Assembly (NCBI GenBank): GCA_027604505.1
Contig: JADIIX010000037.1
Span: 1 to 64,000, forward strand
Source of the DNA: Gonapodya sp. JEL0774
Lineage: Eukaryota
Direction: 5' to 3'
DNA: 64,000 nucleotides
The notes under the pieces: generated by a model
The model's database searches: none
What the model was told of the DNA's origin: nothing
Seen by the model: only the letters and a program-made list of their open reading frames with translations
Made by a program: the position numbers and the translations under genes
Shown here: positions 1-54,515 of the stretch, piece by piece
How positions within the stretch are numbered: position 1 is the first letter of the stretch
Layout: every line of letters begins with the position of its first letter

Positions 1-3000
1 TTGGATGAGTCATCACTGTGGCCTGTATGGCACAGCAGGTCAAAGTACACATAAACAGCCCATTTTCCCATGTAGTGAGACAACACAAGTTTGGAGTTCC
101 AACAGTCCAGGCTCATAACCTGTTAAGCTATGGTGGCAAAACCTGTACAGGGGCAGAGTGCTGGATTCTTGCTTTATCCTTAACAAAGCTTTGCCAGCAC
201 TATGTACGTGGAGTCCAGTCTACCATCCCTGAGCTTTTCAACAAGCTGCAAAAGCTCAATGCTAAGCAGGTACCACTCACAACTCTTTACACTGCGACGA
301 CAGACTTCCAGACAAGAAACATCACATGGGGCAATTGGCAGTTTGCAAACTCAACCACAGGGCCAACCCTGAGTGTTGTGCAGTAACCGACCATTGTCGA
401 CACTCCATGACAAGCTGCAGCTGCTGCCCCAGAGGCACCTATGCTGGTGTTCAGTGGAATCCCATTAATGTGTCTTGTGCGCATCAGGGATTCTTCTGCC
501 CAAACCCATTGTAGCAGCACTCACAGCCGGTTGTCCAGGTGCAACAGCAGCCACTCTTGGCATCGTCGCAACCTCCAGGTGTTCCCCCTGCAAACTCTGG
601 CGCCCATGTGCCCACAATCATCCCAAACCAAATCTGTTGTAACTGCTTTGAGCAAGGACACTGGGAGCGTTTGTGCCGGAAGGCACCTATTGATGTGCTT
701 CCTAACGTCTGCCTATTGGTCGGTTACTTCAACCAACTACCACCAGACTTCATTCCTGGTACAAGGTACTCGGTTCCAGAACACACGCGGGCTGCTGTAG
801 AGACTGAGGCTACTTGCCACTCTCAGCAACCCCCATCATTTAAGGCTGCTCGTCGTGGTGGGGGGCACAGTGGATCCTCTCTTCGGGGATGCCCTAACCT
901 TCTTTCTATGGGTATTGCAAATGACGAATATACCTTGGGTGACAAAGATTGGAGTCAAGAAAGCCTTTACGAACACGAAACCTTTGGAGACAACTACGAT
1001 GGTGAGAATTAGACAACTAACGTAGCTAACATGTAACGCATTGGAAATAAACCGGAAAACCGAATAACGTATGTATGGAGTCCAACCTCTGCAGTGGCAG
1101 CACTCACCCACGCGTAGAGTCTGGATTGGTCAGCCTTCTGTTGTGGAGTGAAGCCGTCCAGATGCTCATGCGTGCAATGTTGGGTGGAGGGAGTCCCCTA
1201 TTGCCTGATGATTGGCTGGCCCAAAGACCCAACTAGGGTATGTATGTCCCTGGCATCTGTGGCACCACCTCCAGACTCTTGTGTGTGTTACAGAGAATGT
1301 GATAGGCAATAATCCAAGGACATGGCCCTGGCAGCAGCGCTCACCTGCCGAGTACTATAGGCGCAGACCTGCTACTTGTTTGAGAGTTTAAGTGGTCAGT
1401 AGCCCTGGGGTTGTGCAGTACTTATTTGCTGTATGACTGCTAAGTGGTTCACACCCCACACCCTTGGCTCAACATCAGTGCACATGTTGTTGTGGGAATT
1501 GCCTTGAGGCAGTCACTGCCTGGTGAAGGGCGTAGCTAACCCTTCACTGGACTGTGGCTGCAATGGTTCCTTTTCCAACGTGGTCCCTTCCACAGCAAGC
1601 TTACCACTACTGTTGCGACCCGTTTCTCAGCTCCATCACCACCAGAGGTTAATATTGTCACTAGCAACACAGTCCTCCGAAGTGCCCTTCCTGTCCCCCC
1701 CAGGAAGCAGCGTGTTGATTACTCAATTGCATGCTTGTTGAACTTCATGCTAATGGAACTCCTCCTGATTATGCTGCAACCGTTAGAGGTACTGTCTGTA
1801 CACTTCCACAGATGGATATCATCCAAGACTCTGGCGCTGCCCTGTCAGCAATTAGTGGCAACATTTACCGTCAATATTTTTCCATGATGCCACTTGAGCC
1901 ATGGAATCTGCAGCCAATAACTGTAGGAGACAGTGCCATCACAGCTCTGCTTGGCTGGGTCTTATAACCCATCACTGTTGCTGGCGTCCAACGTGCACTC
2001 TGCCTCTCAGTTATTGAAAACCTTCCTCATCCAATCCTCTTAGGTGTGGACTTCCTTCGAATTTGGCACGCTGTAATTGATTATGATGAAGGATGGATCA
2101 CCTGCAAAGGTGATGACAGCAAGCTTGGTGCTCAGACATCTGTGCGCATCAAAACTGGCAAGGCACGCTGCCGCAACATAGATCTTGTCCTCGATGAGGA
2201 TATTACCATAGAAGGTTTCCATGGGGCCATGTGTGCCACCCGGGATATTCTCACCTGTCGTTGCTGGACAGGCACAGTCTTCTTGAAGCCCCACCCTGTG
2301 GCATCTGTCAAGCTTGGTGCTCTTGTGGCTCAAGGAACACCTGAGATGACCTTAGGTCAAACTCATGTCTTGTGACCAACATGACTGCCACACCATTGCG
2401 CCTTCTTAAGGGTACACCTATTGCCCCTTGCAAACCACACACAAACTCTGACTTCAATGTCATGACGCTTAACCATGAGGATAAACCAGATGGCAAGGCA
2501 TCCACTGTGTCCACAGCCCCATTAAAGCAGGGCGCTGCTGATTTGCCACAAAAGGTGAACCCCGTCCCTAAGGACCTCACTGAAATTACGCCATTGGTAG
2601 AAAAAGAGGATCCTACCATTCCGTACTTGCCCTCTGAACCAATCCCAGACTTGGACCTCTCTAAGACATCCAACCTCACTGTGCAGCAGCAGAGTTATCT
2701 CTCGCGCACACTACATGAGCATTTTGCAGATGTAATCTCCGACAAGGACGACACAGGCACTGTCACAGGTGTTACACACCACATTGACAGGCAAGCACGC
2801 ACCAATTGCCGTACCACTGCACCCAGCTGCTTTCCAAGAGTGGCCTGAAATGTTGGTTGCTGTCAAAGATATGTTGGACCAAGCGTGATCTGTCCCTTGA
2901 GCCGCCCCTTTTGTTCTTGTACCCAAGAAAGACGGCAAAATCCGTTTCTGCGTTGACTATTGAAAGCTCAACAAGATAACAAAAAAGGACCAATATCCGC

Positions 3001-23869: not shown

Positions 23870-24819
23870 ATGCCGGACGAACCACCAGACACACTACCCT
23901 GGCCTCAACGCCAGCAGATGCTCTCTACGATTGCGATGCCTCCCCTCTCATATCTGGCAGATATCGAGCTCACTGATCACCTGTCCTTGACCTCTTCCAC
24001 AACCTTTAAAGCTGGGGAGCTTTGGGTCGAGCGGCCCTGCGTGATCATGGTCGTCAGACGACCTGGATGATCCTTGTGCAGGGGTGAGCATCGTGATCGG
24101 CTGTGTCTTTCCGACTATGTGTCCAACTCCCTTCCGAATGCACCGCGCTCCTCTTTCCGACGTATTTTGTATTTGCCCTCTTGTAGAGGAGGCTCTTGGC
24201 CTTGCCTCGAAGCGAGACGAGCTCTCCCGCATGGGTGTTGACATGTTCGCTGTGGTGCATGAGGAGTTGAATTCGCGAGATTTCAACGAGAAGTATTGGA
24301 AAGGAAATCTTTTCTTGGATTCTGACAAAGGTTCGTGACTCAACGGTCTACTGACACTGTCGGTAAGTACAATGGCCACTTACTCTCGATTTCGAATGAA
24401 GGTTTCTACAGAGGCATTGGATATCCAAACCTGTACTGGGGCAGCATGTCAGACCTGAATCTCCAAGAAGTAAAGGATAATGGAGCTCGCGCAGCCCAGA
24501 AGGGCGTACCGATGAACTACGAAGGACAGGGTCTGTGAGTGAGCGTTCTCGGTTGTTTGCTGCGCTGTTAGATATCTCACACGATTGAATGGCTGCATGC
24601 AAGAATCATGGGCGGATTATTCGTAGTTTCTCGTCAAGGTATCCACTACCGCTTTATCGAGCGGATTTTTGGTGCACACGCTCCCCTAGAAGGTGGGTTC
24701 CAGTGTGGAAGTCGCCACATTCCCGTTTTCCCCCCATTCTTACCTGCACTATGACCGAAACAGAGGTCATGGAGGCTGCGAAGGTTGCCGTGAACGCACT
24801 GGGCCAGCCGCGCATATGA
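23870..24819 (+). CDS. SELENOU: Selenoprotein U (PRXL2A/FAM213A, AhpC-TSA_2 family) with in-frame TGA read as Sec
   Basis: Exons 23870-24083, 24187-24330, 24402-24534, 24604-24692 and 24764-24819, all GT-AG. They give ...FKAGELWVERPCVIMVVRRPG(U)SLCREEALGLASKRDELSRMGVDMFAVVHE...LFLDSDKGFYRGIG...NYEGQGLIMGGLFVV...GIHYRFIERIFGAHAPLEEVMEAAK..., with TGA at 24068-24070. The start codon is tentative. Confidence 0.92.
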
Positions 24820-24880
24820 ACGCGCCGAGCGTCCCAGTGACGACGAAGTTTCTCTTGTTTCCATATCACTGTCCTATCCT

Positions 24881-24956
24881 TACGTATGAAGACCGTCAGC
24901 TGGAAAAATGTACTGCCCTTTTTCTGTGGTGGACAGGCGGACAAGTCTGAGATGCA
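24881..24956 (+). promoter_or_regulatory. SECIS element (type II-like) in the SelenoU 3' UTR
   Basis: ATGAA at 24886-24890, a 13-nt helix arm, AAAAA at 24904-24908, an apical mini-stem (TGT-ACTGC / GTGGT..ACA), and a return arm ending GTC-TGAG at 24945-24951 that completes the GA quartet. Confidence 0.8.
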
Positions 24957-25395
24957 AACTTTAGCTTGAGTTTGTCAAGGAACAGTGACGGTGATAAGGC
25001 ATTCAGGGGGTTTCTATAAGCAATATATAAGAATGCAAAGACGCCAACGATGATGCACTCATGAAATCTTGGTGTTGGGAACCTACACATATTCGCCATC
25101 TTCGCTGTGTGAAATCAGGCAGCCGGAGGGAGATTACCACATCTTGAACACCCGTCTTATTCCGCCAAAAGCAATTACCAAGTCAATTGAGAGTGAGTGA
25201 GTAGATGAGATGCGCTCATTGGCAGGGATCGATCTGCTGTGTCGGTTCATGATGAAGACATTCTGATTCCACCCATCTGGTCACATTCCTCCCTCTCACG
25301 CCATCACCATCATGCAGCTACATCATCTTTCTACTGGGATCTGCATCCACCTATTTTGCTCTCCTCCTCGGTTGTAAAGTCTCTCGGGGTTGAAG

Positions 25396-28300
25396 ATGCC
25401 AGAGCTGCGACGTCCCGTACCTCGGCAGCTCCCACAGTACTCATTCAACACTGTGCCTACAGAGCAAAGGCAGTTTGAAGTGCCAAGCTTCGATGGCCAG
25501 ACTGGCTATCCTGTCTCGAATTCTCACCCACCGCAATCAGACAAACCGGGAGCAATTCATAACCACCAGACAGCACCTAATCCCTCACAACAGCCCGGTC
25601 AGGAGGCAGCGAGGACGGCACCCAACCTCGATCAATCTTATAATCACCAGCAACAGCAATCTCATGCGCCATCTTCGCAACAGCATCAACCCATCTACAC
25701 ATTCGCAGCAGGGCCGGGTCAACCCATCTACGGCCCGCAACAGCATATGCAGTTCTTAAGTCCGTATGGTGGTCCCAACATGCCATCAAGTGGTCAGCCG
25801 ATGCCAGTTCAGATTGTCATGCCCCAGTACGTCTCCCTACCACCAAATCCTCATAACGGTCCTTCCGCTGCTTCCGATCAGTCCACATCAGGTGTTGGCA
25901 ACAGCACGAGTGGGCATTCGCCAGCACCTGGAGTGTCTCACGGGGAGCATCCTTCCCAACATACTATTGAACACTCTTACCAGCGACACCCCTCGTCCCC
26001 TTCGCCTACACAACACAGAATGCATTCTTCGTCTAGTCCCACTACCTACCTTCGCTCGCAGCTCACAAATCTTGAGACCGATCTTGACCACTCTGTGCAT
26101 ACCATCATTACTGCACTCCGTGACCGTGTCATCGAACTGGAGGCACAGCAGCTCAATTCTACTTTCGAGGTCCAGAAACTCTCTAGGGTATCAACTCAGA
26201 AGGAGATTATCCTTCAGGAAACTACAAAGAAAATCGTTGAACTCGAGAAGGAGCGTCGTCGGTCCGAGTCGCAGTTCAGCCAAGTCCGCGAGCGCACCCA
26301 TCAGGAACTTGCGGAGCGAGATCACCGAATTCTCCATCTGGAAGAGAAACTCCGTAACGCTGAGGCTGCCGCAGCTTCACTAGAACAGACGCTCAAGACT
26401 CGTGAAGGTATCGCTGAGGAAGCGCAGAGCGCTGCTCGAACCGCAACGGAGCGGGGCCAGGCTGTCGCCACCCTTACAGCAACACTTGAGTCTCGACAAG
26501 CAAAACTCCACAAACTTGCGCGTGCTGTCAAGTCTCTCAAGATCTCTCTTCGGACGGAGAAAGAAGCTTCCGGACAGCGCGAGCGCGCACTGGAGGATCA
26601 GCGGGATCGTGTCAACCAGCGATATATCCGCGCATGTGAGAAGGTGGCAAGCCTGGAAGGCACAGTGCAGGATCGAGATACTGTTATTGCGCAGCGGGAG
26701 CGGGCAATTCAAGAAGCAAACACCCGAATCACCGCGTTCCAAACACAGCTCCAGCAGAATGAAGTGTGCATGACAGATCTCAAGAAGGCTTTCACTGAGG
26801 CCGTGGGAACTCTGGCAGAGCGCAAGAGGGCCATTAAAGATCTCCAGCGGCAACTTGAGGAGTCTGCAAGACGTCTTGCAGAGAAGGATGTGGTTGTAGC
26901 TGAGGCGAATAAACTGGCGTCAGAAAGGGCCGATCAAGTGACCGATATCTCCAAGAGACTTGCTGAAGTTGAGCTCGCCAACGGGGAGTTCATGGATAAA
27001 AATGTAGCTCTTGAGCATGAGGTGGAGAACCTAAAGGATGCGATCAGAGAAGTCGCGAAGGATGGAAACGTTGAATCTCAGGCTGAGGTCATTCGAGACG
27101 CTAGCCAAGTTGCTGATGCTGTAGCGCAGGGAGAGGATCAGCAGGAGTCTCAACCCATTGCGAACCGTGCTACACCATCTCGCCAACCAACCGAACGCGA
27201 TATCCTTCCACTCTCTCAGTCCCGACCACAGAGCCCTAATTGGTGGACAGAGACGAAACCCGTCCAGTCTCCATCCAGTGCGACAACAGCTGTCGGTTTG
27301 TCACCGTCACGTTCATCCCGGGCGGCATCACCTAGCGGCCCCGACCAGACGGACTATATCGTCAAGTCGTCCGACATGAACGAGATCGCGGAATCGGTCG
27401 ATTCTGCCAAAGTCGATCAAGTCCGGAACCTTGAACGAAAGTATGCTGAGCTAGAAACTCGATCTAACGCTCAGATTGCTCTAAAAACCTCCGAGGTTAA
27501 CGCACTTGAGGCTCGGGTGAAGGAACTGAAGAAAGAGCTTTCAGATGCCCTCAAAAAGGTTGCTCTGTCTTCTAGCGAGTCTCGGGGTTCGATTGAGCAG
27601 CGTAACGTGCCCCTGCAGGCGGAGGTCGCCACGCCAAGTGCACCCGCTGTGAACGTCGCTAAGACCGATGCGGCTGCCGACGACGATCGTCATATGCTTC
27701 AAGAAATCGTTAAGTCTCTTGAGTCTGCCCTGCGTGTTGCGCAGGCTGAGATCCAGGCAATGAATGCTGAGCACGCTGAAGTAATCGCGGACGCGGATAA
27801 GGAGCTTGGTGATTACAGGCGCAAATGCGAAGAATACAAAAACGTGTGTGATGAGTACAAGAAAGTATGCGAGGAGTTGAATGGAAGGGTAGCAGATTTG
27901 GAGCAAGCACTTGCCAAGGAAAGGGCCTCACTTGGTTCGGGTGGCGACCGGTGAGCAATATTTTGTTGTCACAATCTCGCTACTTCGAACTGTTAAATGT
28001 TGTCACTTTCAACAGGGCTTCTTCTCGCAGCAACTCGACCACATCAACGAGTGCTGCCGCAATGCAATTACAAACAGATCAACTGAAAAGGGCAAAATTG
28101 CGGATCGTGGAACTGGAAAAGGCACTTTCTGATTTGTCACGAGACGACGCCGTGAGTCGCAATGCTGTAAGCTTGCGTGAACTTTCCTCATGATTGAATC
28201 CGCAGACAAAGAAGATCCTAGTGAAAAGCGACGAACTCGAAAAGAAAATATCCGAATTGCAAACGAAACTTCGTGAAGCTGCCGAAACTGTCTCAGTGAG

Positions 28301-29285
28301 TAGTGGGTCGGTGGTATGTGTAAAGCCAGTGACGCAAACACTTCGTCTTTTACTGAAGCGCCGCGACAAAGCACTGCAAGAACTCACGGAGACTGCAGAG
28401 TTACGTTTGAAGGAGGTTGCTGCGATCACAGCACGCCTTGCATACGCCGAGGAAGTCATACAGGACAGGGAAGCTGCCATTGACGAGCGCGATAAGGTTC
28501 TGAGTGAACTTAATTCTCGCATTGAGTCCGGTGGTGGAGATGCGTCCACTGAGCTTGCCACCGCGAAGCGTCTCGCAGAACTCGAGAATGCTATTGCAGA
28601 ACGAGATTCAAAGCTTGCTGATCTCAGCAGAAGGCTCTCCGAGACTGACCATTTCCAAGGCCAGGATTCCCAAATTTCTAATGTCAATCTGGAAGCTGCC
28701 ATTGGAGAGACGCAGAAGATTCTTGTGGAGCTCGCCCGAGCGAAGCAAGAAGCATCCACCGAAGTCGCCAAGATCAAAGCTGAGGCATCGAAACTGTCTC
28801 TTGAGCGGGATCGCAAAATCTCCGCTCTGGAAAGGAATGTCAACAGCCTCGAGAGGGACTCCAATGAACGAGAACGCGAGCTGGGCGAACAGATGCGGAT
28901 TAGCGCCGATAACAAAAAGCTCGAAGCTATTCGTAATGAGACAGTGGGAGCCATGTCTCGCCGCATTGTGGACATTTCTCGCGTCCTCGCAGGCCAGGAA
29001 CTCCCAACGCCACTCACGCCGACCAATCCCGCACAGTGGCAGGCAATTTCAAGCACCAGTCCGGAGCTTGCCAAATTGGTGTCCGGCGTAGTGGAACTTG
29101 AGAACACGTTGCAGGCAACGGCGGACGCGAATCGCAGCGGAATGCACGCAAGGGAAGGATCCCAAGGTTCCATCACCTCTATTCAAGTTGGGCCAGATGG
29201 AGCTCCAGTGAAAAAGAGAAGGCCTTCATTCTTTAAAAAGCTATCCTCTGCGTTCAAGAAGAAGGAAGGAGAGACTGGTGAATAA
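25396..29285 (+). CDS. Large coiled-coil protein of unknown function, multi-exon
   Basis: 854-aa and 363-aa open frames with a Q/P/S-rich N-terminus and long heptad-like E/K/R/L/A stretches. Basic C-terminus KKRRPSFFKKLSSAFKKK. Confidence 0.8.
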
Positions 29286-32085: not shown

Positions 32086-32929
32086 CAGCGAAGAAGGGTG
32101 GATGTTTTCAGATTCGGAATTGGTAGGAACAGAACCACGTCCGAAACAGCTGGGAAAGCAATCACGAACAAGATCAGGAACTCCATCAAGATACATAAAA
32201 CCAATCGCACAAATCTTCCACTTTCTCATGTCGCCATCCCAGGCGTTCCCAGTTCCCGAGGATCCTCACGCAACCAACACCTTCGCACATCAAAGTCAAG
32301 CACTTACCCCACACCTTGCCCCGCCGAATGGACTACACAGGCTTCCAGGAGAAATATGACTCCAAAATTTTTTCAAGAAGTCTTTAGGGGAAGGAAACGG
32401 TATGCTGCAATCTTGTGGACACAACCACCTTATATGACACATTCATCAATCAAGATTCGCCTTCATAAATTTTCATCTTAGTACATATCGCCTTCAATCG
32501 CAATCACTTATGTACACATAGAGTTTTAAGAAAGGGAGAAAGACGTCATATCTCGCTCAAAATACGTTGAGACTGGCCTAAATGGAGCTTCTTTCTATAG
32601 GAGTACTACGTGGATCTTGTATCTTGTGATAAGTTCCTCCAACGGATGCACAGAATCATCAACTCTGTTTGCGCTGGCCACCGCGGGCTTTTATGCAATG
32701 ATGGAGTCTGTGATGTTTATTATTTCCTGGTCATAATAGAGAAATCTGCAAATTTTTAGAGAAACTCCGCAGAGCCAAAGCTTGCATGCATCAAGAGGTG
32801 CTAAGGTCGTCATTTGTCGCCGTGTCGGCCTATGGGGTGGTTGGTTCCGGCAGCTCCTGCCAAAAGTATTCACCGATCGCACGTTGATTTGCACACGTTG
32901 AACGGAGCATACTGTAAATACCATCATCG

Positions 32930-35398
32930 ATGGACGGACTGCGGAAAGCGACAGTGAACATTGTAGCAGGGCGGGGAACCGGAGGTCTCAGATTCGACCC
33001 AGTGGGACCAACTGCCACGGCGAACCCGCTTTCGGGGTCTCCCATGTCTTCATTTTCGTCATTATCTTTGGCGTCTTTAAAGAGCCGGCATGTGCATAGG
33101 AGCTCAGGACGCTCGCCGCGGCATATTTCCTCGTCTGCAGCAACTCGTGCTCATCCAGGAGATCCCCTCTCGCGAACATTGCTTGCCCTTACACCACACT
33201 CGACTAATACTCAACACCATGGTGCTCATGAGCACCACCATCATCATCTTCACAACGCCCATCAGCACCGCCATCACGCCCGTCCTCCCCCCTCTCGGTT
33301 CTACGCACCACCGCAGGAATCTCCGCCACGATCATTAAAACACCAGTCGGCATTGGCTCCAGTCTCCACATCTGCTAGTCCATCAACAAACTTTCAACAT
33401 CACGAACTCCCTCGCCTCTCCAACACTCATTTCCCCGGAACCACCCCTACGAGGCCTTCGTCACCGAGCACAATATCCTCCTTGGATGAATGGCCCTCTT
33501 TGGACAATTGGTCTCCGTTGTCGCAACCCCATTCAACCCCCTCAAAATCACCTTCGAGTGAACCACAGGGAGCAGCATCCTCACTACTTGAAATTCGACC
33601 CCCGATCCTCCCCCCAGTCAACCCTACCGACCCCGACCCGACCCTCCTCTCTCGCACGTTTTACCGGCGCGCCCTTCCTCCCCAGCTTACCTCATTCACT
33701 TCCACTCACGGCAAGCGCCTTTTCCGTGAAGCTCTTCTCGATGGACATGCTGAATCCTACTTTTCTCTGGTTGGAAACTTCACTTCCCAAAGCCATCCAG
33801 CGCTCTGCGGGCTTGGAAGTCTTGCCATGGTTTTGAATGCTTTGGAAGTGGATCCGAAGAGGAGGTGGAAAGGTGTTTGGAGGTGGTGGAGTGACGAAAT
33901 GTTGGAGGTCCGTAAGACGTGTTGCTGGTGTTGTCGTGGGGTATTTGTTATGGGCACACACATCAAGGTCCAAGGAACAAACAAAAATCATTCAAAAGCT
34001 TCACTTGTGATGGCCGATGAGCGCTATAACTCTTTGGCGGTCTCTTTTCTCTTTCCGAACCGCTTTGTTAACGACCCCATATCTTTCTCACCACGACCCT
34101 TCTCACAATCCCAGCTCTGCACACCGATTTCAGAAATTCAACGCCGCGGTGTGACCTTTCGAGACTTCGCGTGTATTGCCCGAAACAACGGTCTTAAGTA
34201 AGTGTCCGCTCGTGTTCACACGGCGACATTCCGTACTCAGCTTCCCATGTTCATTTCCGACTCTGGCGGATAGTGTCCTCGCTAAACCTGGTGACACGAC
34301 TTCATATGCAGAGTTCATGAAGGATATTGAACTCTCAGCGACATCACCAGATGTTCATCTAGTGGTGTCCTTCTCGCGAAAGGCCATGGGATGCACAGGC
34401 GACGGCCACTTTTCTCCGATAGGAGCGTACCACAGGGGGGAGGACAAGGCACTAGTATTGGATGTGGCTAGATTCAAGGTGAGTCCCCACTGGAAGTTTC
34501 CAGAAGTGTGAATATTGCCACAGATGCTCCATGTATTTCACAGTACCCGTCCTACTTTGCCTCCACCAAAGAACTCTATGAAGCCATGAAACCGGTGGAC
34601 AAAGAAACTGGTCTCTCTCGCGGTTATTTCCTCCTTCGCCGTGGGACTCGTAAACACGCGCCACTTTGCAAGGTTGCAGTACATCCATCTGCTAATCGGG
34701 CAGACTTGTCCACTCTCCTTACTCGCTCTGTACCCTCTTATCTTGCCTCATTGGTACCACGAACACTTGAAGACGTGGTGAGGGCGGTTTTAGCAGCAAT
34801 TCCGGACGATTACCGTTTTCTAGTGAGCATGCAGGCACCCGGAGTGGATTTAGCTGGCGGGGACGAGCAGAGGAAGGGAGTACTCGAGAGACATAAAAGA
34901 ATGGTGGATGAATTGGTTGAAGAGGCGAGAAATAATGGGATGTTTCAAGTAGTGGCAAATGTAGCAGGTGGTGGGATGATGTTCAATGACCGACACGGGA
35001 AAGGGGAAGGCATGGACACTGCTGGAGACAGCACATTCACTCCGCAAGTCGAGCAGGCTTTCTGCTCCCATGGTGCGCCACAGGTATGCTGCTCGTGGTG
35101 TGTCGACTTTTCGCAAGGCGCCTACAAGGAGGGTAACAATCGCGCGTACGTGGGCTCCGCTGCACGAGACCGACGCGTGGCACTCGCCACTATTTTTATG
35201 CTCGCATCACCTCGCGATATGTATCAAAGTCTGCCGGCGCATCTTTCTGATCAGCTGGAGGAATTCCGCCGGTCCGTGGAGACCGGTGGGAGGGGTGGAA
35301 GGCTGTTGAGGGAGGAGGTGAGGAGAGCTCAGGTGGAACTTGCAGCATTGATGAACGAAGGCTGCCAGTGTCGGCAGGAAGATGCTCGGTCAGCATGA
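32930..35398 (+). CDS. PCS1: Phytochelatin synthase, multi-exon
   Basis: FYRRALP, QSHPALCGLGSLAMVLNALEVDPKRRWKGVWRWW, GDGHFSPIGAYH, LDVARFK|YP, DKETGLSRGY. The Cys-His-Asp triad is intact. Start may instead be the ATG at ~33044. Confidence 0.95.
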
Positions 35399-35541: not shown

Positions 35542-40708
<5,167 letters not shown>

Positions 40709-40904
40709 TGATTGCATTGCAGAATTTATAATGTTGATTGGGGTCCTTTGCACCGCCACAGTGGAAAGTTTGGGAGTATAAAAGGAAAACGACCAATCCA
40801 CAATCCTCATTTCCGCCTTCCCCACACCACCAGGCCGTCTCTACTCGACAAGACTTCAGCTTCTTCCTCATCGGCTTCGCCTCTGTGCGTTTGCTTGCTG
40901 TCCC

Positions 40905-42072
40905 ATGTCCCAAGGCGCCAGTGCAACTCAGACAGATGCTGGGGCGGCCGGCAATCCCCAGACCGCACTCCTTATGCCACAGCTCCAGTATGTATATGGT
41001 TTTGTAGTTTTGGCCGGAGAAAGGGACCTTTCAGTGCTCGTACGGGTTGGATTAAGTTGTGGACACACCAAGTGTGCCGGTCAACTATCGTGGGGAATCT
41101 GATCTTGGATCATCGTTGCGAAGCAATTCGCGATGTTGCTGCTCTTGATGTCTGCGAGCAGTAGTTTCCAATGGTTCCACTTGCTCGGAATACTCTCCGA
41201 TGCTCCCATTCTCTTGTTCCAGGAATGTGGTAGCGACAGTCGACCTCGAGGTGAAGTTGGACCTTAAAACTATTGCACTTCATGCGCGGAACGCCGAGTA
41301 CAACCCAAAAGTTTGTATCAAATGTTTTGGAAAGTCACCTTTATTCGCACATTCCTATCCAACTGTATCCACTTTTGCGCCTTCTCCCAGCGATTCGCTG
41401 CCGTCATTATGCGGATTCGCGAACCCAAGGTTTGACTTTTCTGAGTAACTTTTACAGCCTTTGTGCTCACTTGCACGTCTTGTCAGACCACTGCTCTGAT
41501 ATTCTCAAGTGGCAAGATGGTTGTCACGGGTGCTAAAAGGTTTGTTCTCAGGTGCGCTTTGGACAATGGCCTTACAAATTTTACTGGATCATGGGCACAG
41601 CGAGGACCAAGCAAAACTCGCGGCGAGAAAGTATGCCCGCATCATCCAGAAGCTCGGCTTCAAGGCATCCTTCAAATCCTTCAAGATTCAGAACATGGTC
41701 GGTTCAACAGACGTCAAGTTTCCCATACGGTTGGTAACTCGTAGATCGCAAATGCTCCCCGAATGTTGTGATTCTGACGTTGGAAAATATCCAGTCTCGA
41801 GGGTTTGTCATTCGCTCACGGCGCTTTCTCGTCGTACGAACCCGAGCTGTTCCCTGGCCTCATTTATCGCATGGTTCGCCCCAAAATTGTGTTGCTCATA
41901 TTTGTATCCGGGAAAATTGTTCTCACTGGAGCGAAAAGCCGGGAGGAGATCTACACTGCGTTCAACTCCATATACCCAGTGAGTTTGCTTGGACTCGTTT
42001 CCTTATTCCTTTGACTATTGATTGTGAATTTCTGGTGTGAATCAGGTGCTATCGGAATTCCGCAAGCAATGA
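40905..42072 (+). CDS. TBP: TATA-box binding protein, multi-exon
   Basis: [12 protein letters not shown]...[39 protein letters not shown]...[14 protein letters not shown]...VLSEFRKQ*. Confidence 0.97.
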
Positions 42073-42485: not shown

Positions 42486-44456
42486 TCATTCGTCATTCCC
42501 TGTCCCCGCCTGCACCTTCTTCTTCTTTTTCGACTTCTCCGACTTATCCGACGCATCGCTCTTCTCCGAATTCCCTTTTTTGACCTTTTCCGCTTTGTCA
42601 GATGGTTCTCCCTTCTCGGTCTTTCCCGTCTTCGAATCTACTGCTCCGGATGCTGCCGCACCGTCCTTCTTATGCTACAGAGAGCATTGGAGCAAACAGT
42701 GTTAAATGCGAGCAAACGAGAGCGCATAATTCATTGTTAAGTACCTTTTTCTTCTTTCCTTTCCCTTCATCATCTGCCTCTGCCTTCCTCTTCGTCGGTG
42801 CAGGTTTCTCCACGTCCATACCGTCCCCATCGTCATCTATTATGGCGTCCAGAGCAGTCTTCATCGCATCCGCATTGCGCCGAGGTGTGGTGCCCTCCTC
42901 ATAAAACTTAAGACGCTCCTCTACTTGATCCCGGAGAACCTCGCCAAACTTTTGTGTGGGTTTGTCTGTGTTCGGAGTTGAGTCCGGACATCACAATGTC
43001 AGCGACGTGGAAACATCCTTCACTCACCAATGAAGCAGTCTATCCGAGATGCAATGGAGCACTTGTTGGCAAGGAAGCGAGAAATCCGACCCTTGTTCTT
43101 TTGGCCGGCTCGACCGATGAAAGTGGAGTGGTAGATAAGCCCATACTTTGGAGTATTTCCTTTGGTCTTGAGAGCCCTGGACAAGCAAAATGTGGTGTCC
43201 AATATTGAATGGTTCAAGCATACCTCCAAACCGTGCACTTGAATGCTCACCTGAAGAGAGCCTTCTCGGCACCCAAAATTTGTACTGTGGACGCGGGATA
43301 CTTGGAGAGGTTTGTGAGAGAGCCAGCGTGCGAGATGAGCCTGGCACCGACAGACTCGCCGATAAGCGCAGACAAATTGGGCGCCACTTGGTGCATTTTC
43401 GACACCAGGTATGAGTGCAGACTCTTGCGGTACTCCGCAAGGTTCACCACGCGATCGGCAAATTGCTCAATATTTTCCATGTCAGTATCGGCAATGTCAG
43501 TTCCCATGGACGATTTCGCAGCCTCAAGAATTTGTCGGGCTTTGCCCGGTGCGTCGATGGGTGTCGCAGAGGTTGCTAAGAGGTCCTCTAGTGCGGGGAG
43601 GTCTTCCTCCGTGAGGCGGGATTTGTCGCGAATGTGCTTGGCAAGTTTGGCAAAGAGATGATTGTCGGAGACTATTTTTATGAGCTCGGGGAAATGCCAT
43701 GAATACCATTCGCTGTGATGAGTGAGACCCATTGGTCGCCGAAAAGGGATGTATTGAACCTCAATTGAACATCATCCGAAAATGGATAGCGGGGACTACT
43801 CACCGAACTCTCATTGAAAATGTGTTCACGTCCTTGTCCAATTGGTCCAGTAGGGCAATGGCCTGGATAATCATGTTGTCCGATCGATTGACATTGAACT
43901 TGACTTTCGCCCTCGAGTAGCTATGACCCAATCCAAGCTGTGCCCTTTCCAAATCACCATCCTTCAAACCTCCAATAAGCTTATCCGCGTGCAACCGAAT
44001 CCCCCGAATAACCTCGGTCACAACTTCATTCGACTGACAGTCGAACCCAAGCTCCTGCTTGATTGTACCAGCAAGACCCTTTTCGAAAACACCAAGTTGT
44101 ATCTTCGATTTCTTGCCAGGAAGGTTCAGCTCCAGGAAGGATTTCAGATGATCGTTCACGATGCCTGATTGGTGGGGAGCACCGAACACAATTTTCGAAA
44201 GCGTGGCAGGTGAAAACGATGCCATCTCTACCTCGACCATTAATAGAAACCACTCACCCTCAGATACGTCGTTTATGTTTTCGAGCGCGTGGGCAGCGCT
44301 CTTGAAGGGAGCAAAGCTCTTGAGCTTCACATAACGACCAAATCGCGCGAGGTCCTTGACAGCCTCCTGAACCTCATCAAGCTCCATGCCGACTTCATCT
44401 CCAGCAACACGCTCGAACAGAGCGTACCCCGACGCCGTTTCGTAGAGTACGAACAT
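42486..44456 (-). CDS. NOP56: Nucleolar protein 56 (box C/D snoRNP), multi-exon
   Basis: [84 protein letters not shown], Lys-rich tail. Confidence 0.96.
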
Positions 44457-44842
44457 TGTACTACGATGCGGAGATTTATCTTTTGTCGGTGCTCGGACCT
44501 GAGCCGACCAAAGCAACGAGGTCTGATACATGCCATTAGGAACTGCGACAAGCTGCAGTTACCATTGCACTACAAGATTATCACATGGTGTATGCTTGTT
44601 AATAGCGGATCCGACTCGTGTATCACGACAAGCAGGGTGGGGACGTAAATGGTCACCACCCATATTCCGGCGACGACCTTCTCTCTGCACCTGAAAGGCA
44701 AACACCCTTGGCTTCGCTTCGAAGGATGAAATTGAGAAAGCTCGGCGAAGGGATCAGGCTGAACTGCTGACGCAAAGTCCACCTAGGATCCAGACCATCT
44801 TCACCTTCACAGACTCAAAACAACATTCACCCATCAGTCACA

Positions 44843-47700: not shown

Positions 47701-49244
47701 CTATTCACAATTCGAAGATGACGCTAGTTTCTCCGTGGACAACTTCTCCATGTTTGTGCGCTTTGTCTTCTTGCTAGAAGGAGACCGGTTCTCCACATCA
47801 CCGTCATCTTCGATGCGGTTACTAAAGGCTTTAAGGTCGGCCGTAAATAGAACCTGGTGGCAGAAGAGTCAAGCGGGGAATCACAAACAGTTTACTAATC
47901 AACTTTGGGCACCTCTGTCGGGCTGATGCACATTTCATACCCACGGAATGAGCCCAGCCACAGTGATCCCCATGCAACTTTCGAAAATGTTGCTGTATTT
48001 GCTTGTATACCTTACTGGTTAAGGTCTTTGGCGTTTTCCCGGGGGAGTTTACGACTTTTGTAGTTCCCTTCCTCTTTCGTTTTCCTGGAGAGTATCCATT
48101 TTCGTCTCCTGCTGAGGAACCTTCACCAGTGATTTCATCTATTTCCTCGGCAAGGGTGAAGTTGTAATCTCTGAGTGCGATTTGCCAAACATGACGGTCC
48201 ACAGGGACCGCTTCTGCCTTGTCCAAACTCATGAGTGCGACACAATCAGCAACCTTGGGGCCAACACCTGGAAATTCCAGCAGAGCAGCGATGGTATCAG
48301 AGTAGCTGGAGGTGCGCAGGGAAAGGAGGTAGGATTCTGGGTCTTTGTGGGAAGCAAGTTTGGCGCACGTTTCCGCTACGTATTTGGCTCTGTACCCAAA
48401 GCCTAAGTCTCGAAGGCGAGGTTCAAGGTCAAGCGCGGAAGCCAACTGCGAGATGGTAGGGAACTCGTGGAAAGGTGGCTGGTTGAGGGCCAAATGCGAT
48501 GGAAGGCCGACCAGTGAACCATACTCTCGGCAGAGCGCGTTGACCTGGAGTTTGCACAAACATTATCTTGAGAGTTGTGCACCAATCCCTTTGGACCGAG
48601 GTGATGACTTCACCATCAAGGTAATCCTTGCGACATTATTATTGCTCGTGCAAATGAACGTAATAAGATTCTCGACGGGATGCTGTCGAAGAACTCGAAC
48701 GCCTCGAAACGCGGAATTTGTGGTCCCGAACCGGTGGAAGTTGGTATCTGCCGAAGACCATTTCTTGTAGAGCTCTGAGAGCGAGCATTCAAGTTGGAAA
48801 TAGTCTCGCAAGTAGGTACGAGCCTCGTTTGGATCAGACACCAGAGAATTTTGGGGATGGTAAGTTCGATATAAGACGTCTGTATCTGCGATATCAACGT
48901 TTCTATCGGAAAGCACGGATCCGTACTCGACTCAACCGCCTCTCACCAGTCTGTTTCAAAGACACAAGCTTTCCCTCCAGTGAATTTGTCCTTTAGTCCA
49001 TAGTCGAACATAAACGCATAAGAAATTCATTGAAGAATCAGCGCATCAATGCAAGTGTTTCCATTAATGGTGTCGAGAATTATGCAGACCATTCGTAGTC
49101 GCCAGTTTTACGCCATCGAAAGCTCTGTGCGCCTTGGAGCGTCGTATCGAGACGCAGTTCTTCGGGGAGAACATTCAGTGAAGCCCAGGGGCTCGGATAC
49201 AGAACTTCGGGGTTCAAAGCCAATTGAGAGGGTTGAGAGGACAT
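47701..49244 (-). CDS. OGG1: 8-oxoguanine DNA glycosylase, multi-exon
   Basis: ELRLDTTLQGAQSFRW, GVRVLRQHPVENLITFICTSNNNVARI, LGFGYRAKY, HhH-GPD PGVGPKVADCVALMSLDK..VPVDRHVW, GWAHS|VLF. Confidence 0.95.
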
Positions 49245-50801: not shown

Positions 50802-52420
50802 CTACGCTTTGACCGTAACTTTGAGGTTTTCGTTTGCAAAATCCCAGTTCACCAACTTCCACCAAGCTGCGGCAACCACCGGGAACGAGTGTCAATGGCC
50901 GGTTATTCCAATACTTTCAACATGAAGAAGATTTCAGCGACACTCACAGTCAATGTAACTCGCCCTCGCATTGCGATAATCGATGTAGTAGGCATGCTCC
51001 CAAACATCGCAGGTCAAAAGTGGGACGAGGTGGGACTCTGAGAGTCGGCCAAGCAAACAAAGCAGGTCCAGAAAATTTAGCACGGGTGACAGTAAGTGTC
51101 CCCGAAGTTACGTGGAAGATTTAACGAGGCTTAAGCATGGTTCCCGGGTCCGTAACGTCTTGTGATGGCCTTCGATGGACGTACCTTGAATAGGAGTGCC
51201 GGCGTCGTGAGTTTGAACAATCTTTATCTTTCCGTCCTTTGTGTCGTGTACAAGCCATGCCCAGCCGGAGCCAAAGTGGCCAGCCGCCGCTGCGTGGGGA
51301 AGAAGATAGTTCAACGAGAGAGGAATTGATCACAAATGAGTCACAAATGAGAAAAAGTGCTGAGATCGCTTCAAAGTGCTGAGAGCTTCTGCGTGTTCTG
51401 TCACTCACCAGCTGTGAACTCCCGCTTGAAGTTATCGAAGCTCCCGAACGATGAATCAATAGCTTGCTTGACCTGACCAGTTGGCTCGCGCACTGCGACA
51501 GTAGAGTCGGTGGCGGGGGCGAGAGAGCTGTATGGGTTGAGCCGACACCGGGACGTTTACTAAGGAGTTACACTGGCAAGCTGCAACATAATGGAAAGGT
51601 CCTCTCCCGCCAATGTAGACGGAGATCGAGCCCTTTGTCGACAGCCGCTTAAGGACTCTGTTGGTTTTTGGTACCCTCATAGTAGCGTTCGCGGAGATCG
51701 TGTCTTCATCACGAATAAACTACGCACGTCCAGTAGAAGTCGTGGTTGTAAATCTGGGCAGCGCTGTTAAACACTCCCGCGGGTACTTTGCCAAATGACT
51801 TGCACAATTCCGGGATGGACTTGGATGCCAGAGGTGTGCCCGCCGTAAGTTCATTCAGACGAGCGACATAGCCTGAAACACAAAAACAGGTGACTCCCAA
51901 GAAATTCAAGTGAAGAATCCATTACAGCCCCTAAGTTCTCCGAGGTTCGATTCACCATAATAACAAAGCTCGAGCAAGAGAAGTTCAATACTTCATGGAA
52001 GCACAACGTGTCATCATCAATCCAGCTATTCGTTTCCGCGAACGACCTCAGCTTTGAGAAAATGTATAAAATTTCGTGGAGGAATATTCATCTTCACTCC
52101 GAAAGCACCTTTGCATTCCATCGTAAGAGATGATTCAAAGTTCCGCTGAGTGCTGACCACATCCAGTTGGAGAAGAACATGCTTTTGCTAATGCACAAGC
52201 GACTTCTTACGGATGTATTGGGTGTCATCAAGGTCCGGATCCTAATATCTGGTGATGTCCGATCCTTTTGTTCGCGACCTGCCTATGTCATTATGTCTCA
52301 GAGAGGATACTCACCCGCGTGGTGCTTGCCATAGTGAAAGCTCAGTGTTTCCTCCGAAATAAGCGGAGCTAGTGCCTTGAGTTGGTAAGGCAGTTTGTTG
52401 AGCGTGAATGCAGCTGCCAT
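50802..52420 (-). CDS. Iron-type superoxide dismutase (SodB-like), 6 exons
   Basis: [101 protein letters not shown]. Confidence 0.93.
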
Positions 52421-52728
52421 TTGGATGGGAGAAATGATACGATTTTGTTCAAATGTCGGGCAGCCTCGATGGTGCCATGTGCTCCCAACCCTCTTATCTC
52501 TGATAGGTTGACTTGCTTCGACATCCCCCTTCGAATTCTTCAACAATCTCGATAAATTGTGCTGGATGTACTGGGGCTCTGTTGATTCTTCTCCATCCTT
52601 CTCGGTACGATACGCACCTTGACAACATTTGATCAAGGTGTTGATCTCTTCGCATTTCTCACGACATCTCAATTGAAAATCACCTGAAGGTTGAATACAA
52701 GACAACAGCAGAGATGAAATTGAGTGCC

Positions 52729-54515
52729 ATGAAGGCGAGTGTCGGGGAGGCAAGAAATGGGGTTGCGCAGTTGAGTCTGCAACTGGAAACAAGGGCCACA
52801 GATGAAGGACTTGTCGGGATGGGCTCAGATGATGCATTGAATTTGAGTTCAGGTTCTAGTTCAGAAGGCGAGGACGAAGTTCGGCGTTTGAAAGAGCGTA
52901 TTCAACAGATAGAGGCTGCGCTAAGAGAGAAAGATGAAGGTGCGTTTTCGCGTGCCTGTTCGATACTCTCTCCTAGGTCTTATGAAGGACACTGTTCGCA
53001 TGCAAACTCGCATCTTGCCTAGTCCTCGAGCTCGCTGCTCAGTATGGCACCACACTCCTTGCAGAGAATGCAAGACTAACGCAGACCATCTCATCCGTGC
53101 TACAATCTGCTGATTCAACCAACCCATATTCACTCTGTCACTTATCTACGCCTATTTCACGCTCTTCTCTTCCGGAGGCAAATGCACATCGAACGGTATC
53201 TGCCGATCTCGCTTTCCCTCGGCAAGAGGGCCTTCTCTCTCCTCGCCCCAATCTCGCATCACTTGCACTCGAGCTCGCTTTTCGTGTCAGCAAAAGTCCC
53301 TCAATATCTGAAAGTTGCCGGAATCTCTCTCGGCCACCACCACCAAGAAAGCTTAAGCGCGTTCTGCAAGAGAGGGAGCACATTTGGTTAAGTCGGGAAC
53401 CTGATCAAGACCAATCCACCGAGGATTCGACAACCCGACAGCGTACCCGACGACGCGTGTGGAAGGACGAACGACAAGGCGATAACGAAAACGACTCAGG
53501 CAGTGCGAGCGCCGGTGAACCCGACGATATTGAAAGAGTAGCCGATTCCCCGGATGGTTTACATCCCTCATCTCATCGCTCCAGCAAATATGCAGCTCAC
53601 CTCGTCATTGCCGATCGTCACATCGCCTCACTCGAAAACGAACTCACACGTCTCGAAGAAGAACTTACCAAGGCTCGGAAAGAAGCCGGAAACTGGAGGA
53701 AGATGGCCACTCAGGCAATGAGGACTGGCGAAATGGAAGTGAAGTCTTCGAACCCATACGACAGGAGCGAAACTGAATCGACTGGGGATAGGACTACAAG
53801 CAGAAAGTGCACGCGAGCGCGGGACCAGACAGAGGAGGAATATATTGATGCCTTACCCGGAGCTTTGCCGCAAGAAGAACATTGGTGCAGTCGACCTGAA
53901 AATCAAAGCTCAAGCGTCGCAGATTCTACGAAAGTATATCCGGACGCCGGTTGGTCGCTCCATGCAGTCGAGTCGCCTCACGGTAACCTGAGCAATCCAC
54001 ATGCGCAAGCCTCTGCACCGATTTGTGCCCGACCGTACGGCTGTTCTGAAACGAATAGGCACCTCGATCCCGGTCGGACCACACGTTCGGACGACGATTC
54101 GAGTGGCTCAGAGTGCTTGCGCGACCGCCATCACTCTTCAGCATCGGAAGTGAACTCCATGGCTGGGAAGTTTCAACAATCTCGTTGCATATCCGCTCTG
54201 TGTCTTCCATCCGCGCAGATTCCTGCCCGGGTGTTTGCAGCCCGACTTCCGGGCATTCTCACCGCGTCATTTGAGCTCCTTCACACGGACAGTGGTGGCC
54301 TTAGAGTCACGCTCGAAGCCGAGACAAACACTGCAAGCTCGATGCATGCGCACAGTTGGAGCAATGCCGGGGGGGGAAACTCTACAAGCAGTGGTATTCA
54401 AGGGAGCTTAGTGGGACTTGGTGTGCGGATGGCGACTGGTGCGGCGAGAGTAGCTTTTTGGGCGGTGAAGTCCGTGGTGAATGTAGCGGTGGGAGTGGTT
54501 GGATTAGCAAGGTGA
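52729..54515 (+). CDS. Hypothetical protein with short coiled coils
   Basis: 472-aa open frame plus an upstream exon ([21 protein letters not shown]|gt). No family recognised; exon structure uncertain. Confidence 0.55.

What the first reader, a model, noticed from the sequence alone, without database searches (positions are those of the whole stretch)
24881..24956. SECIS-like stem-loop ~66 nt after the SelenoU stop, with an extended apical mini-helix
Seen: ATGAA-GACCGTCAGCTGG-AAAAA-TGTACTGC(CCTTTTTCT)GTGGTGGACA-GGCGGACAAGTC-TGAG. It has the UGAN/NGAN quartet, 13 nt from core to unpaired As, GAC/GTC pairing next to the core, and a second stem above the A-bulge (type II layout). Helix II has mismatches and the apical part is long, so this may be a divergent fungal SECIS that scores weakly with standard models. 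It independently supports Sec decoding.
Basis: partly seen in the sequence, partly recalled or inferred. Interest (0 to 1): 0.8.

Follow-up and report, generated by a model that had tools for sequence, protein, structure and literature searches.

The report
Long-armed fungal selenocysteine insertion hairpin

Summary
The motif is there as described. AUGA starts at 24886, 66 nt after the stop of a five-exon SelenoU/PRXL2A gene. That gene's only internal stop, TGA 24068-70, sits at the first Cys of the family's CxxC motif; the Gonapodya prolifera orthologue (about 70% identical) has Cys there.

The unconstrained minimum-energy fold sets the two GA steps opposite each other, leaves the A-run unpaired and adds a long apical stem. 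It is the only such candidate in the 596 nt behind the gene under six rule sets. Chance is 2-14 per 1000 shuffles with the canonical rules and 8-13% with the loosest.

Against it: folding energy is ordinary (z about 0), Rfam does not hit it, and helix II has three breaks. Helix I has 4 pairs, and the 3' core is UGAG rather than KGAW. AA-to-GA is 43 nt against a widest published limit of 39, so my rule was widened after seeing it. No covariation, RNA data or Sec machinery could be checked.

Verdict: probably a real, divergent type II SECIS (about 0.75) of an unannotated fungal selenoprotein. Long mini-stems are known in algae and Dictyostelium. It is useful as a lead on the "missing" fungal SECIS elements.

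The parts
23870..24083 (+). SelenoU/PRXL2A-like gene, exon 1 (ATG to R71; holds the in-frame TGA)
   Evidence: GT-AG exon model giving 211 aa with one internal stop; 66% identity over 64 aa to G. prolifera P0002
24068..24070 (+). In-frame TGA, residue 67, in RRPG-(U)-SLCR: likely selenocysteine codon of a UxxC motif
   Evidence: aligns with the first Cys of CxxC in P0002; same TGA in SelenoU of L001
24187..24330 (+). Exon 2
   Evidence: Pfam AhpC-TSA_2 PF13911 E=1.3e-4, below curated cut-off as a 47-aa piece; identical to the annotated model P0003
24402..24534 (+). Exon 3
   Evidence: identical to P0003
24604..24692 (+). Exon 4
   Evidence: identical to P0003
24764..24819 (+). Exon 5 with terminal stop TGA 24817-24819
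   Evidence: C-terminus level with that of P0002
24884..24887 (+). 5' strand of the only short helix I found next to the core (4 pairs with 24952-24955); weak and uncertain
   Evidence: MFE; lost in the 241- and 341-nt contexts; no 8-nt helix I under SECISearch rules
24886..24890 (+). 5' SECIS core AUGAA
   Evidence: sequence
24891..24901 (+). Helix II 5' arm: 3+3+3 pairs broken by a 1x2 and a 1x1 loop (predicted)
24902..24908 (+). Unpaired GGAAAAA bulge holding the apical adenosines, first A 13 nt above the core (predicted)
   Evidence: unpaired probability 0.76-0.84 free, 0.97-0.98 with core GA/GA held open, 66-nt context
24909..24935 (+). Long apical mini-stem (8-9 pairs) and U-rich loop (predicted)
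24936..24947 (+). Helix II 3' arm (predicted)
24948..24951 (+). 3' SECIS core UGAG; its GA faces the 5' GA in the free fold
24954..24975 (+). Side hairpin right after the core that competes with helix I; not above chance
   Evidence: z = 0.10; present in longer-context folds
25015..25030 (+). AT-rich TATAAG/AATATA stretch, possible 3'-end signal downstream of the element (inference only)
   Evidence: only matches to a short list of poly(A)-type words in 24820-25400

Best explanation
The 24886-24951 stretch is likely a functional but divergent type II eukaryotic SECIS element in the 3' UTR of a SelenoU/PRXL2A gene, and it would direct the in-frame UGA at 24068 to be read as selenocysteine. Shown: the intact five-exon gene, the UGA at the first position of the family's CxxC motif, the core and A-run motifs, and their spacing. 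Predicted: the hairpin, with tandem GA/GA at its base, an unpaired A-bulge 13 nt above and a 27-nt apical mini-stem. Inferred from established eukaryotic Sec biology: the GA/GA core forms a kink-turn bound by SBP2, which brings EFsec and Sec-tRNA to the UGA 504 nt upstream on the spliced mRNA, giving a 211-residue UxxC thioredoxin-fold oxidoreductase. Also inferred: the terminal UGA, 66 nt from the core, is probably too close for efficient recoding and so still ends translation, with a second in-frame UGA 45 nt from the core as back-up.
For: Gene: one GT-AG model gives 211 aa with a single internal TGA. It is conserved on both sides of the TGA against G. prolifera: 66% over 64 aa upstream, 71% over 129 aa downstream. 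Only 1 of 80 possible single-base nonsense changes in the CDS falls on this codon.

Family site: of 155 homologues examined, 14 begin within two residues of the second Cys and 4 have Trp at the site. Both are the usual marks of a UGA read by a gene caller (inference). 121 were scored CxxC, one of them the misaligned P0003, and 16 were other or unaligned. The nearest unnamed relative P0004 starts right after the site. L001 has the same TGA plus a canonical SECIS 64 nt after its stop. The congener G. prolifera has eukaryotic Sec machinery, and fungal SECIS elements start about 40-420 nt after the stop (10.1101/314781).

Element: it is the only candidate in the region under 6 of 6 rule sets, with chance 2-14 of 1000 shuffles for rules A-D. 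The same rule finds the L001 control. It passes the energy limits of PMC2375036 (-12.4 upper stem against -3.7; -18.4 whole against -12.6). Helix II pairs reach 0.91-0.98 when the four core G/A bases are held unpaired. Long mini-stems occur in Ostreococcus, Chlamydomonas and Dictyostelium SECIS elements (PMC2375036).
Against: Rfam gives no SECIS match at E<=10 in 801 or 101 nt. The strict and default SECISearch1 patterns fail even with the loop limit lifted to 35, because helix II needs 3 mismatches plus 1 insertion. AA-to-GA is 43 nt against a published limit of 39, and with that limit the rule misses it, so the limit was widened after the fact. The apical part is 34 nt in the best fold against the SECISearch3 limit of 30. 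The 3' core lacks the consensus W. Helix I is only 4 pairs directly under the core, with no typical internal loop, and no 8-nt helix I fits. The fold is no more stable than shuffles, and unconstrained helix II probability is 0.73, 0.08, 0.49 and 0.52 in the four contexts. The loosest rules hit 8-13% of shuffles. The nearest named orthologue has Cys. Sec machinery in this genome, inclusion of the element in the mRNA and covariation were not testable.
Confidence: 0.75

Rival explanations
1. The gene is a true selenoprotein gene, but this hairpin is a chance look-alike and recoding uses another, unrecognised signal, as suggested for most fungal selenoprotein genes.
For: 11 of 16 fungal selenoprotein genes had no detectable SECIS (10.1101/314781). 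The element fails Rfam and the stricter patterns and has ordinary stability. The loosest rules hit 8-13% of shuffles.
Against: It carries AUGA, a 13-nt spacer, an unpaired A-run and an apposed GA together, which 2-14 of 1000 shuffles do. No other candidate appears in 24800-25395 under any rule. A hairpin just after the UGA in the spliced mRNA is weak: z -0.85 by dinucleotide shuffle, -2.2 by synonymous codons, pair probability about 0.35.
Confidence: 0.14
2. The TGA is a recent nonsense change or an assembly error in a Cys gene, and the hairpin is chance or a decaying relic.
For: The G. prolifera orthologue has Cys, as do most homologues. No reads could be laid on the site. The element's many imperfections would suit decay.
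Against: The one lesion would have to hit 1 of 80 possible nonsense changes, at the family's known Sec site. Both halves and all splice sites are intact. The close relative P0004 also begins right after the site. A SECIS-like element would have to coincide as well.
Confidence: 0.06
3. The 5' core is real but the working fold differs: either the nearer GA at 24940-41 is the partner (canonical length), or the base is a three-way junction with the 24954-24975 side hairpin in place of helix I.
For: The loose SECISearch1 patterns match 24886 with the 3' core at 24939. In longer contexts the side hairpin forms and a distal helix (24869-75 with 24978-85) closes a multiloop.
Against: No minimum-energy fold computed uses the nearer GA. 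The side hairpin has z = 0.10.
Confidence: 0.05

Closest known systems
Eukaryotic type II SECIS (Rfam RF00031 SECIS_1; SECISearch/SECISearch3 consensus, PMC3753652, PMC2761289)
   Same: In the 3' UTR of a UGA-containing gene; AUGA and GA at the base of an upper stem; unpaired As 13 nt above the core; extra stem above the A-bulge.
   Different: The apical part is 34 nt (limit 30) and AA-to-GA is 43 nt (widest limit read: 39). Helix II has 9 pairs in three blocks, the 3' core is UGAG, helix I is very short, and there is no Rfam hit.
Long-mini-stem SECIS elements of Ostreococcus, Chlamydomonas and Dictyostelium deiodinase-like (PMC2375036, passages)
   Same: Type II layout with an extended apical mini-stem and unpaired AAA in a bulge.
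   Different: It exceeds the spacing used to find those (15-39 nt; 24-35 for Dictyostelium). It has A, not the Ostreococcus G, before the core. It lacks the Dictyostelium UGUA lead-in and U-U mismatch. I could not see their figures or compare sequences.
Fungal SECIS elements and selenoproteins of Mariotti et al. (bioRxiv 10.1101/314781, whole text read, figures not visible)
   Same: Early-branching fungus, known selenoprotein family (SelenoU), element within the reported 40-420 nt after the stop.
   Different: The five reported elements fit the consensus and were found by SECISearch3, whereas this one is at or over its length filter. SelenoU was reported missing as a selenoprotein in G. prolifera, whose orthologue has Cys here, so a Sec/Cys pair exists among close relatives.
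SelenoU / PRXL2A (peroxiredoxin-like 2A; Pfam PF13911 AhpC-TSA_2)
   Same: RRPG-(U/C)xxC-R motif. Hits are named Peroxiredoxin-like 2A. The family profile matches solved prostamide/prostaglandin F synthase chains at E 6e-30.
   Different: The public gene model (P0003, 156 aa) starts inside intron 1 and omits the UGA exon, so this member is not annotated as a selenoprotein.

Membership tests
Eukaryotic SECIS, type II | Lies downstream of the stop of a gene with an in-frame UGA at a Sec/Cys-aligned site, same strand | tested here: met
   66 nt after the stop, 504 nt after the UGA on the spliced model; UGA aligned to Cys
Eukaryotic SECIS, type II | 5' RUGA and 3' GA apposed at the base of helix II | tested here: met
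   AUGA 24886 and GA 24949-50 face each other in the free MFE; a prediction, not a measured structure
Eukaryotic SECIS, type II | Full core consensus UGAN/KGAW | tested here: not met
   3' core is UGAG against KGAW in PMC3753652; the search patterns themselves accept NGAN
Eukaryotic SECIS, type II | Unpaired AA 10-13 nt above the core | tested here: met
   13 nt; A-run unpaired in the MFE
Eukaryotic SECIS, type II | Helix II of 7-15 pairs with limited bending and few mismatches | tested here: inconclusive
   9 pairs, 2 mismatches and 1 insertion in the MFE fit the SECISearch3 limits; as a 13-nt PatScan arm it needs 3 mismatches plus 1 insertion and fails
Eukaryotic SECIS, type II | Apical part within published length limits (<=30 nt between the helix II arms; AA-to-GA <=39 nt) | tested here: not met
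   34 nt in the best fold, 30 in a register 5.3 kcal/mol worse; 43 nt AA-to-GA.
Eukaryotic SECIS, type II | Mini-stem above the A-bulge | tested here: met
   8-9 pairs, 24909-24935, predicted
Eukaryotic SECIS, type II | Helix I closing an internal loop below the core | tested here: inconclusive
   4 pairs in short contexts, replaced by a multiloop in long ones; 2 weak 7-nt and no 8-nt pattern matches
Eukaryotic SECIS, type II | Match to the Rfam SECIS_1 model | tested here: not met
   no hit at E<=10; control L001 hit at 22.3 bits, itself below the gathering score of 35
Eukaryotic SECIS, type II | Structure conserved with compensatory changes in orthologous 3' UTRs | not testable with these tools
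   no genome held; two metagenome scans found no locus
Eukaryotic SECIS, type II | Present in the mRNA, binds SBP2 and drives UGA recoding | not testable with these tools
   needs RNA data and experiments
SelenoU/PRXL2A selenoprotein | AhpC-TSA_2 domain with UxxC at the conserved RRPG site in an intact gene | tested here: met
SelenoU/PRXL2A selenoprotein | Sec machinery in the same genome | not testable with these tools
   no genome held; no tRNA in the window; reported for the congener G. prolifera

The most novel reading that the evidence does not exclude
Fungal SECIS elements have drifted, with the divergent fungal SBP2, into an over-long, mismatch-rich type II form that standard filters discard. 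This element is then the first template for the 'missing' SECIS elements of most fungal selenoprotein genes, and the Sec/Cys pair within Gonapodya-like fungi is a recent Sec-Cys switch that can be followed together with gain or loss of its SECIS.
Probability: 0.2. Interest if true: 0.72.

Novelty: new member of a known kind. Interest (0 to 1): 0.45.

Why it matters
The fungal selenoprotein preprint left two questions open. It found a SECIS for only 5 of 16 genes, suggesting undetected variants, and it saw no Sec-to-Cys conversions in fungi.

A working SECIS that overruns the published length filters gives a concrete, testable template: relax the apical limit and re-search the other fungal genes. 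The gene adds an unannotated Sec-SelenoU in a monoblepharid fungus whose close relative has Cys, a natural pair for studying Sec gain or loss. Native fungal signals were also proposed in that preprint as a route to selenoprotein expression in yeast.

On its own, one more SECIS with a long mini-stem is an ordinary result.

Tried and rejected
Data that could not be reached:
- No whole genome is held, so Sec machinery and other SECIS elements of this organism could not be searched.
- Sequencing runs: none was listed; this is no evidence either way.
- Two metagenome scans found no locus (116 and 239 pattern matches, none confirmed), so the DNA behind P0004 was not reached.
- A prokaryote-genome scan could not run because the alignment had no conserved stretch.
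- A search for N-terminal fragments ending at the UGA found no candidate.
- The final Nature Microbiology 2019 paper is not held, and the preprint's figures and supplements were not visible. They may show further fungal SECIS elements or SelenoU details.

Considered and rejected:
- Folding stability as evidence: z near 0.
- A bare pattern match as evidence: 10-15 loose hits per 128 kb.
- A recoding hairpin just after the UGA: inconclusive, best of 86 windows by synonymous shuffle but weak otherwise.
- The direction of the Sec/Cys change: unresolved. The window gene, P0002 and P0004 form a clade (99) but their order has support 81 in a quick tree of 68 rows, with the careful search unfinished.
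- General reassignment of UGA: unlikely, since the gene's own end is a TGA level with the orthologue's C-terminus.
- Rfam snoRNA matches on the minus strand (E 0.46 and 5.4, far below gathering): chance.
- The bacterial promoter/terminator scan was empty and is not relevant to a eukaryote.

Earlier scan notes held nothing on this genome or sequence.

Full report
Observation. AUGAA lies at 24886-24890, then 13 nt, AAAAA at 24904-24908, and UGAG at 24948-24951. The upstream stop ends at 24819, 66 nt before AUGA.

The gene. One GT-AG model (exons 23870-24083, 24187-24330, 24402-24534, 24604-24692, 24764-24819) gives 211 residues with a single internal TGA at residue 67, in RRPG-stop-SLCR. Exon 2 matches Pfam AhpC-TSA_2. 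The closest named protein is G. prolifera KXS16773 (P0002), which has Cys at that site. Identity is 66% over 64 aa before the site and 71% over 129 aa after it. A public model labelled Gonapodya sp. (P0003) equals exons 2-5 letter for letter but starts inside intron 1 and so omits the TGA. The organism is therefore a Gonapodya-like monoblepharid fungus. Named homologues are 'Peroxiredoxin-like 2A', that is SelenoU (the equation of the two names is recalled).

Is the TGA selenocysteine? Among 155 homologues (the best 150 of 878 hits plus those), 121 were scored CxxC, one of them the misaligned P0003. Fourteen start within two residues of the second Cys, 4 have Trp at the site and 16 are other or unaligned. 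Starts just after the site and Trp are what gene callers make of a UGA (inference). One DNA example was reached: L001 has TGA at the same site. The nearest unnamed relative, P0004, starts right after the site. A random nonsense change would hit this codon in 1 of 80 ways. G. prolifera is a reported Sec user in which SelenoU was not found as a selenoprotein (10.1101/314781, whole text read; figures and supplements not seen). Machinery in this genome could not be checked. I put Sec at about 0.93.

The fold. Without constraints the minimum-energy structure contains the same hairpin in contexts of 66, 101, 241 and 341 nt. Helix II has three blocks of three pairs, GGAAAAA is bulged, an 8-9 pair mini-stem lies above it, and the two GA steps face each other at the base. 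Helix II pair probabilities are 0.73, 0.08, 0.49 and 0.52 in those contexts, and 0.91-0.98 when the four core bases are held unpaired; the energy model has no kink-turn term. Stability is ordinary: z = 0.09, -0.30 and +1.35. Helix I is 4 pairs in short contexts and gives way to a side hairpin (24954-24975, z = 0.10) and a multiloop in long ones.

Standard models. Rfam finds no SECIS at E<=10 but hits the canonical SECIS of L001 at 22.3 bits. I re-coded the four SECISearch1 patterns from the supplement of PMC3753652 (main text parts 1-2 of 4, supplement parts 1, 3, 4 of 72), without their energy filter. Strict and default fail even with the loop limit at 35. Loose and loose+ match only through a nearer GA that no computed fold uses, and loose matches 15 sites in 128 kb. 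In the folding register the 13-nt arm needs 3 mismatches and 1 insertion. The apical part is 34 nt against the SECISearch3 limit of 30, and AA-to-GA is 43 nt against 39 in PMC2375036 (passages and section 27). SECISearch3 itself was not run.

Chance. I required RUGA, AA 10-13 nt above, a 3' GA, and a free fold that pairs the first base pair above the core, leaves GA/GA and AA open, is unbranched and has at least 7 pairs in helix II. With the published 39-nt limit the element is missed; with 45 it is found, with one other site in 128 kb and 7 of 1500 shuffles of the 596-nt region. To limit the effect of that after-the-fact widening I ran six variants. The element was the only hit in the region in 6 of 6. 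Shuffles gave 4, 5, 14 and 2 of 1000 for the four canonical variants, and 14 of 176 and 16 of 121 for the two loosest. Other window sites numbered 1, 2, 1, 2, 15 and 31. The rule also finds the L001 control. So the element is more than chance, by a factor of about 70-500 under canonical rules and about 10 under the loosest.

Mechanism. Shown: gene, UGA position, motifs and spacing. Predicted: the hairpin. Inferred from established SECIS biology (passages of PMC2761289; PMC11227280): tandem GA pairs form a kink-turn that SBP2 binds, EFsec and Sec-tRNA are recruited, and the UGA 504 nt upstream is read as Sec, giving a UxxC oxidoreductase. In human chimeras the apical loop and helix I were minor determinants and helix II and the internal loop major ones. 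A long apex should therefore be tolerated, while the broken helix II suggests a weak element. The terminal stop is also UGA, 66 nt from the core, within the 51-111 nt minimum spacing quoted for deiodinase 1. A second in-frame UGA lies 45 nt from the core (sequence), so a minor 7-residue extension is possible but termination is likely kept.

Comparison and novelty. It works like a type II SECIS. It meets position, core GA/GA, A-spacing and mini-stem, and it fails the KGAW core, the published length limits and Rfam. Helix I and helix II quality are inconclusive; covariation and function are untested. Long mini-stems are known in Ostreococcus, Chlamydomonas and Dictyostelium, and canonical fungal SECIS elements were found for 5 of 16 genes. 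My literature searches (listings only unless stated) found no description of this gene or element. The final 2019 journal paper was not held; that it covers nine species comes from passages of PMC11378755. Passages of 10.1101/2021.02.26.433065 concern G. prolifera Sec-MsrA only. The preprint saw no Sec-to-Cys conversion in fungi, a statement made about selenoproteinless species. The Sec/Cys pair here lies between close relatives, but a quick tree (68 rows, careful search unfinished) does not give its direction.

Verdict. Observation confirmed; interpretation supported at about 0.75. It is a new member of a known kind, at the long and imperfect edge of the consensus. Interest 0.45, or about 0.72 if it proves to be the template for the undetected fungal SECIS elements (probability about 0.2).

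Noticed in passing
L001:47-667 and 732-779 (IMG/VR contig IMGVR_UViG_3300030741_000002): Intronless SelenoU reading frame with TGA at the same RRPG site and a canonical SECIS 64 nt after the stop (Rfam SECIS_1, 22.3 bits). The other end (1170-2147, minus strand) looks like the end of a picorna-like capsid gene (judged by eye, no family search). Probably a host-mRNA/virus chimeric assembly; used only as a positive control.
   Followed up: partly
window 24817-24840 and 24967-24969: All three in-frame stops after the last exon are UGA (66 nt and 45 nt before the core, and one after the element), so a short Sec-containing C-terminal extension is possible.
   Followed up: partly
window 24076-24232 (spliced across intron 1): A -23.7 kcal/mol hairpin can start 6 nt after the Sec UGA in the spliced mRNA. 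It is the best of 86 windows by synonymous shuffle (z -2.0 to -2.2) but not by dinucleotide shuffle (z -0.85).
   Followed up: yes
window 24954-24975 with 24869-24875/24978-24985: A side hairpin right after the 3' core and a distal helix can form a three-way junction below the element; not above chance by energy.
   Followed up: partly
window 24138-24186 (intron 1): The public 156-aa gene model starts inside intron 1 and misses the UGA exon, a typical selenoprotein mis-annotation.
   Followed up: yes
P0005, P0006, P0012-P0016: Cys-type SelenoU/PRXL2A homologues are present in Tieghemiomyces, Ramicandelaber, Dimargaris, Glomus, Diversispora and Mortierella. This bears on the preprint's statement that selenoproteinless fungi lack orthologues; orthology was not established.
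   Followed up: partly
window 25396-27954 and 28194-29285 (+): Long coiled-coil reading frames directly downstream, with no Pfam family above cut-off.
   Followed up: no
window 32918-35398 (+), 37255-40711 (+), 41500-41982 (+), 43247-44558 (-), 47831-48562 (-), 52298-52855 (-): Frames that look like phytochelatin synthase, an SMC protein, TBP, NOP56/58 (NOP5NT confirmed), OGG1 and an Fe/Mn superoxide dismutase. Names other than NOP5NT are recalled from motifs; none looks like Sec machinery.
   Followed up: no
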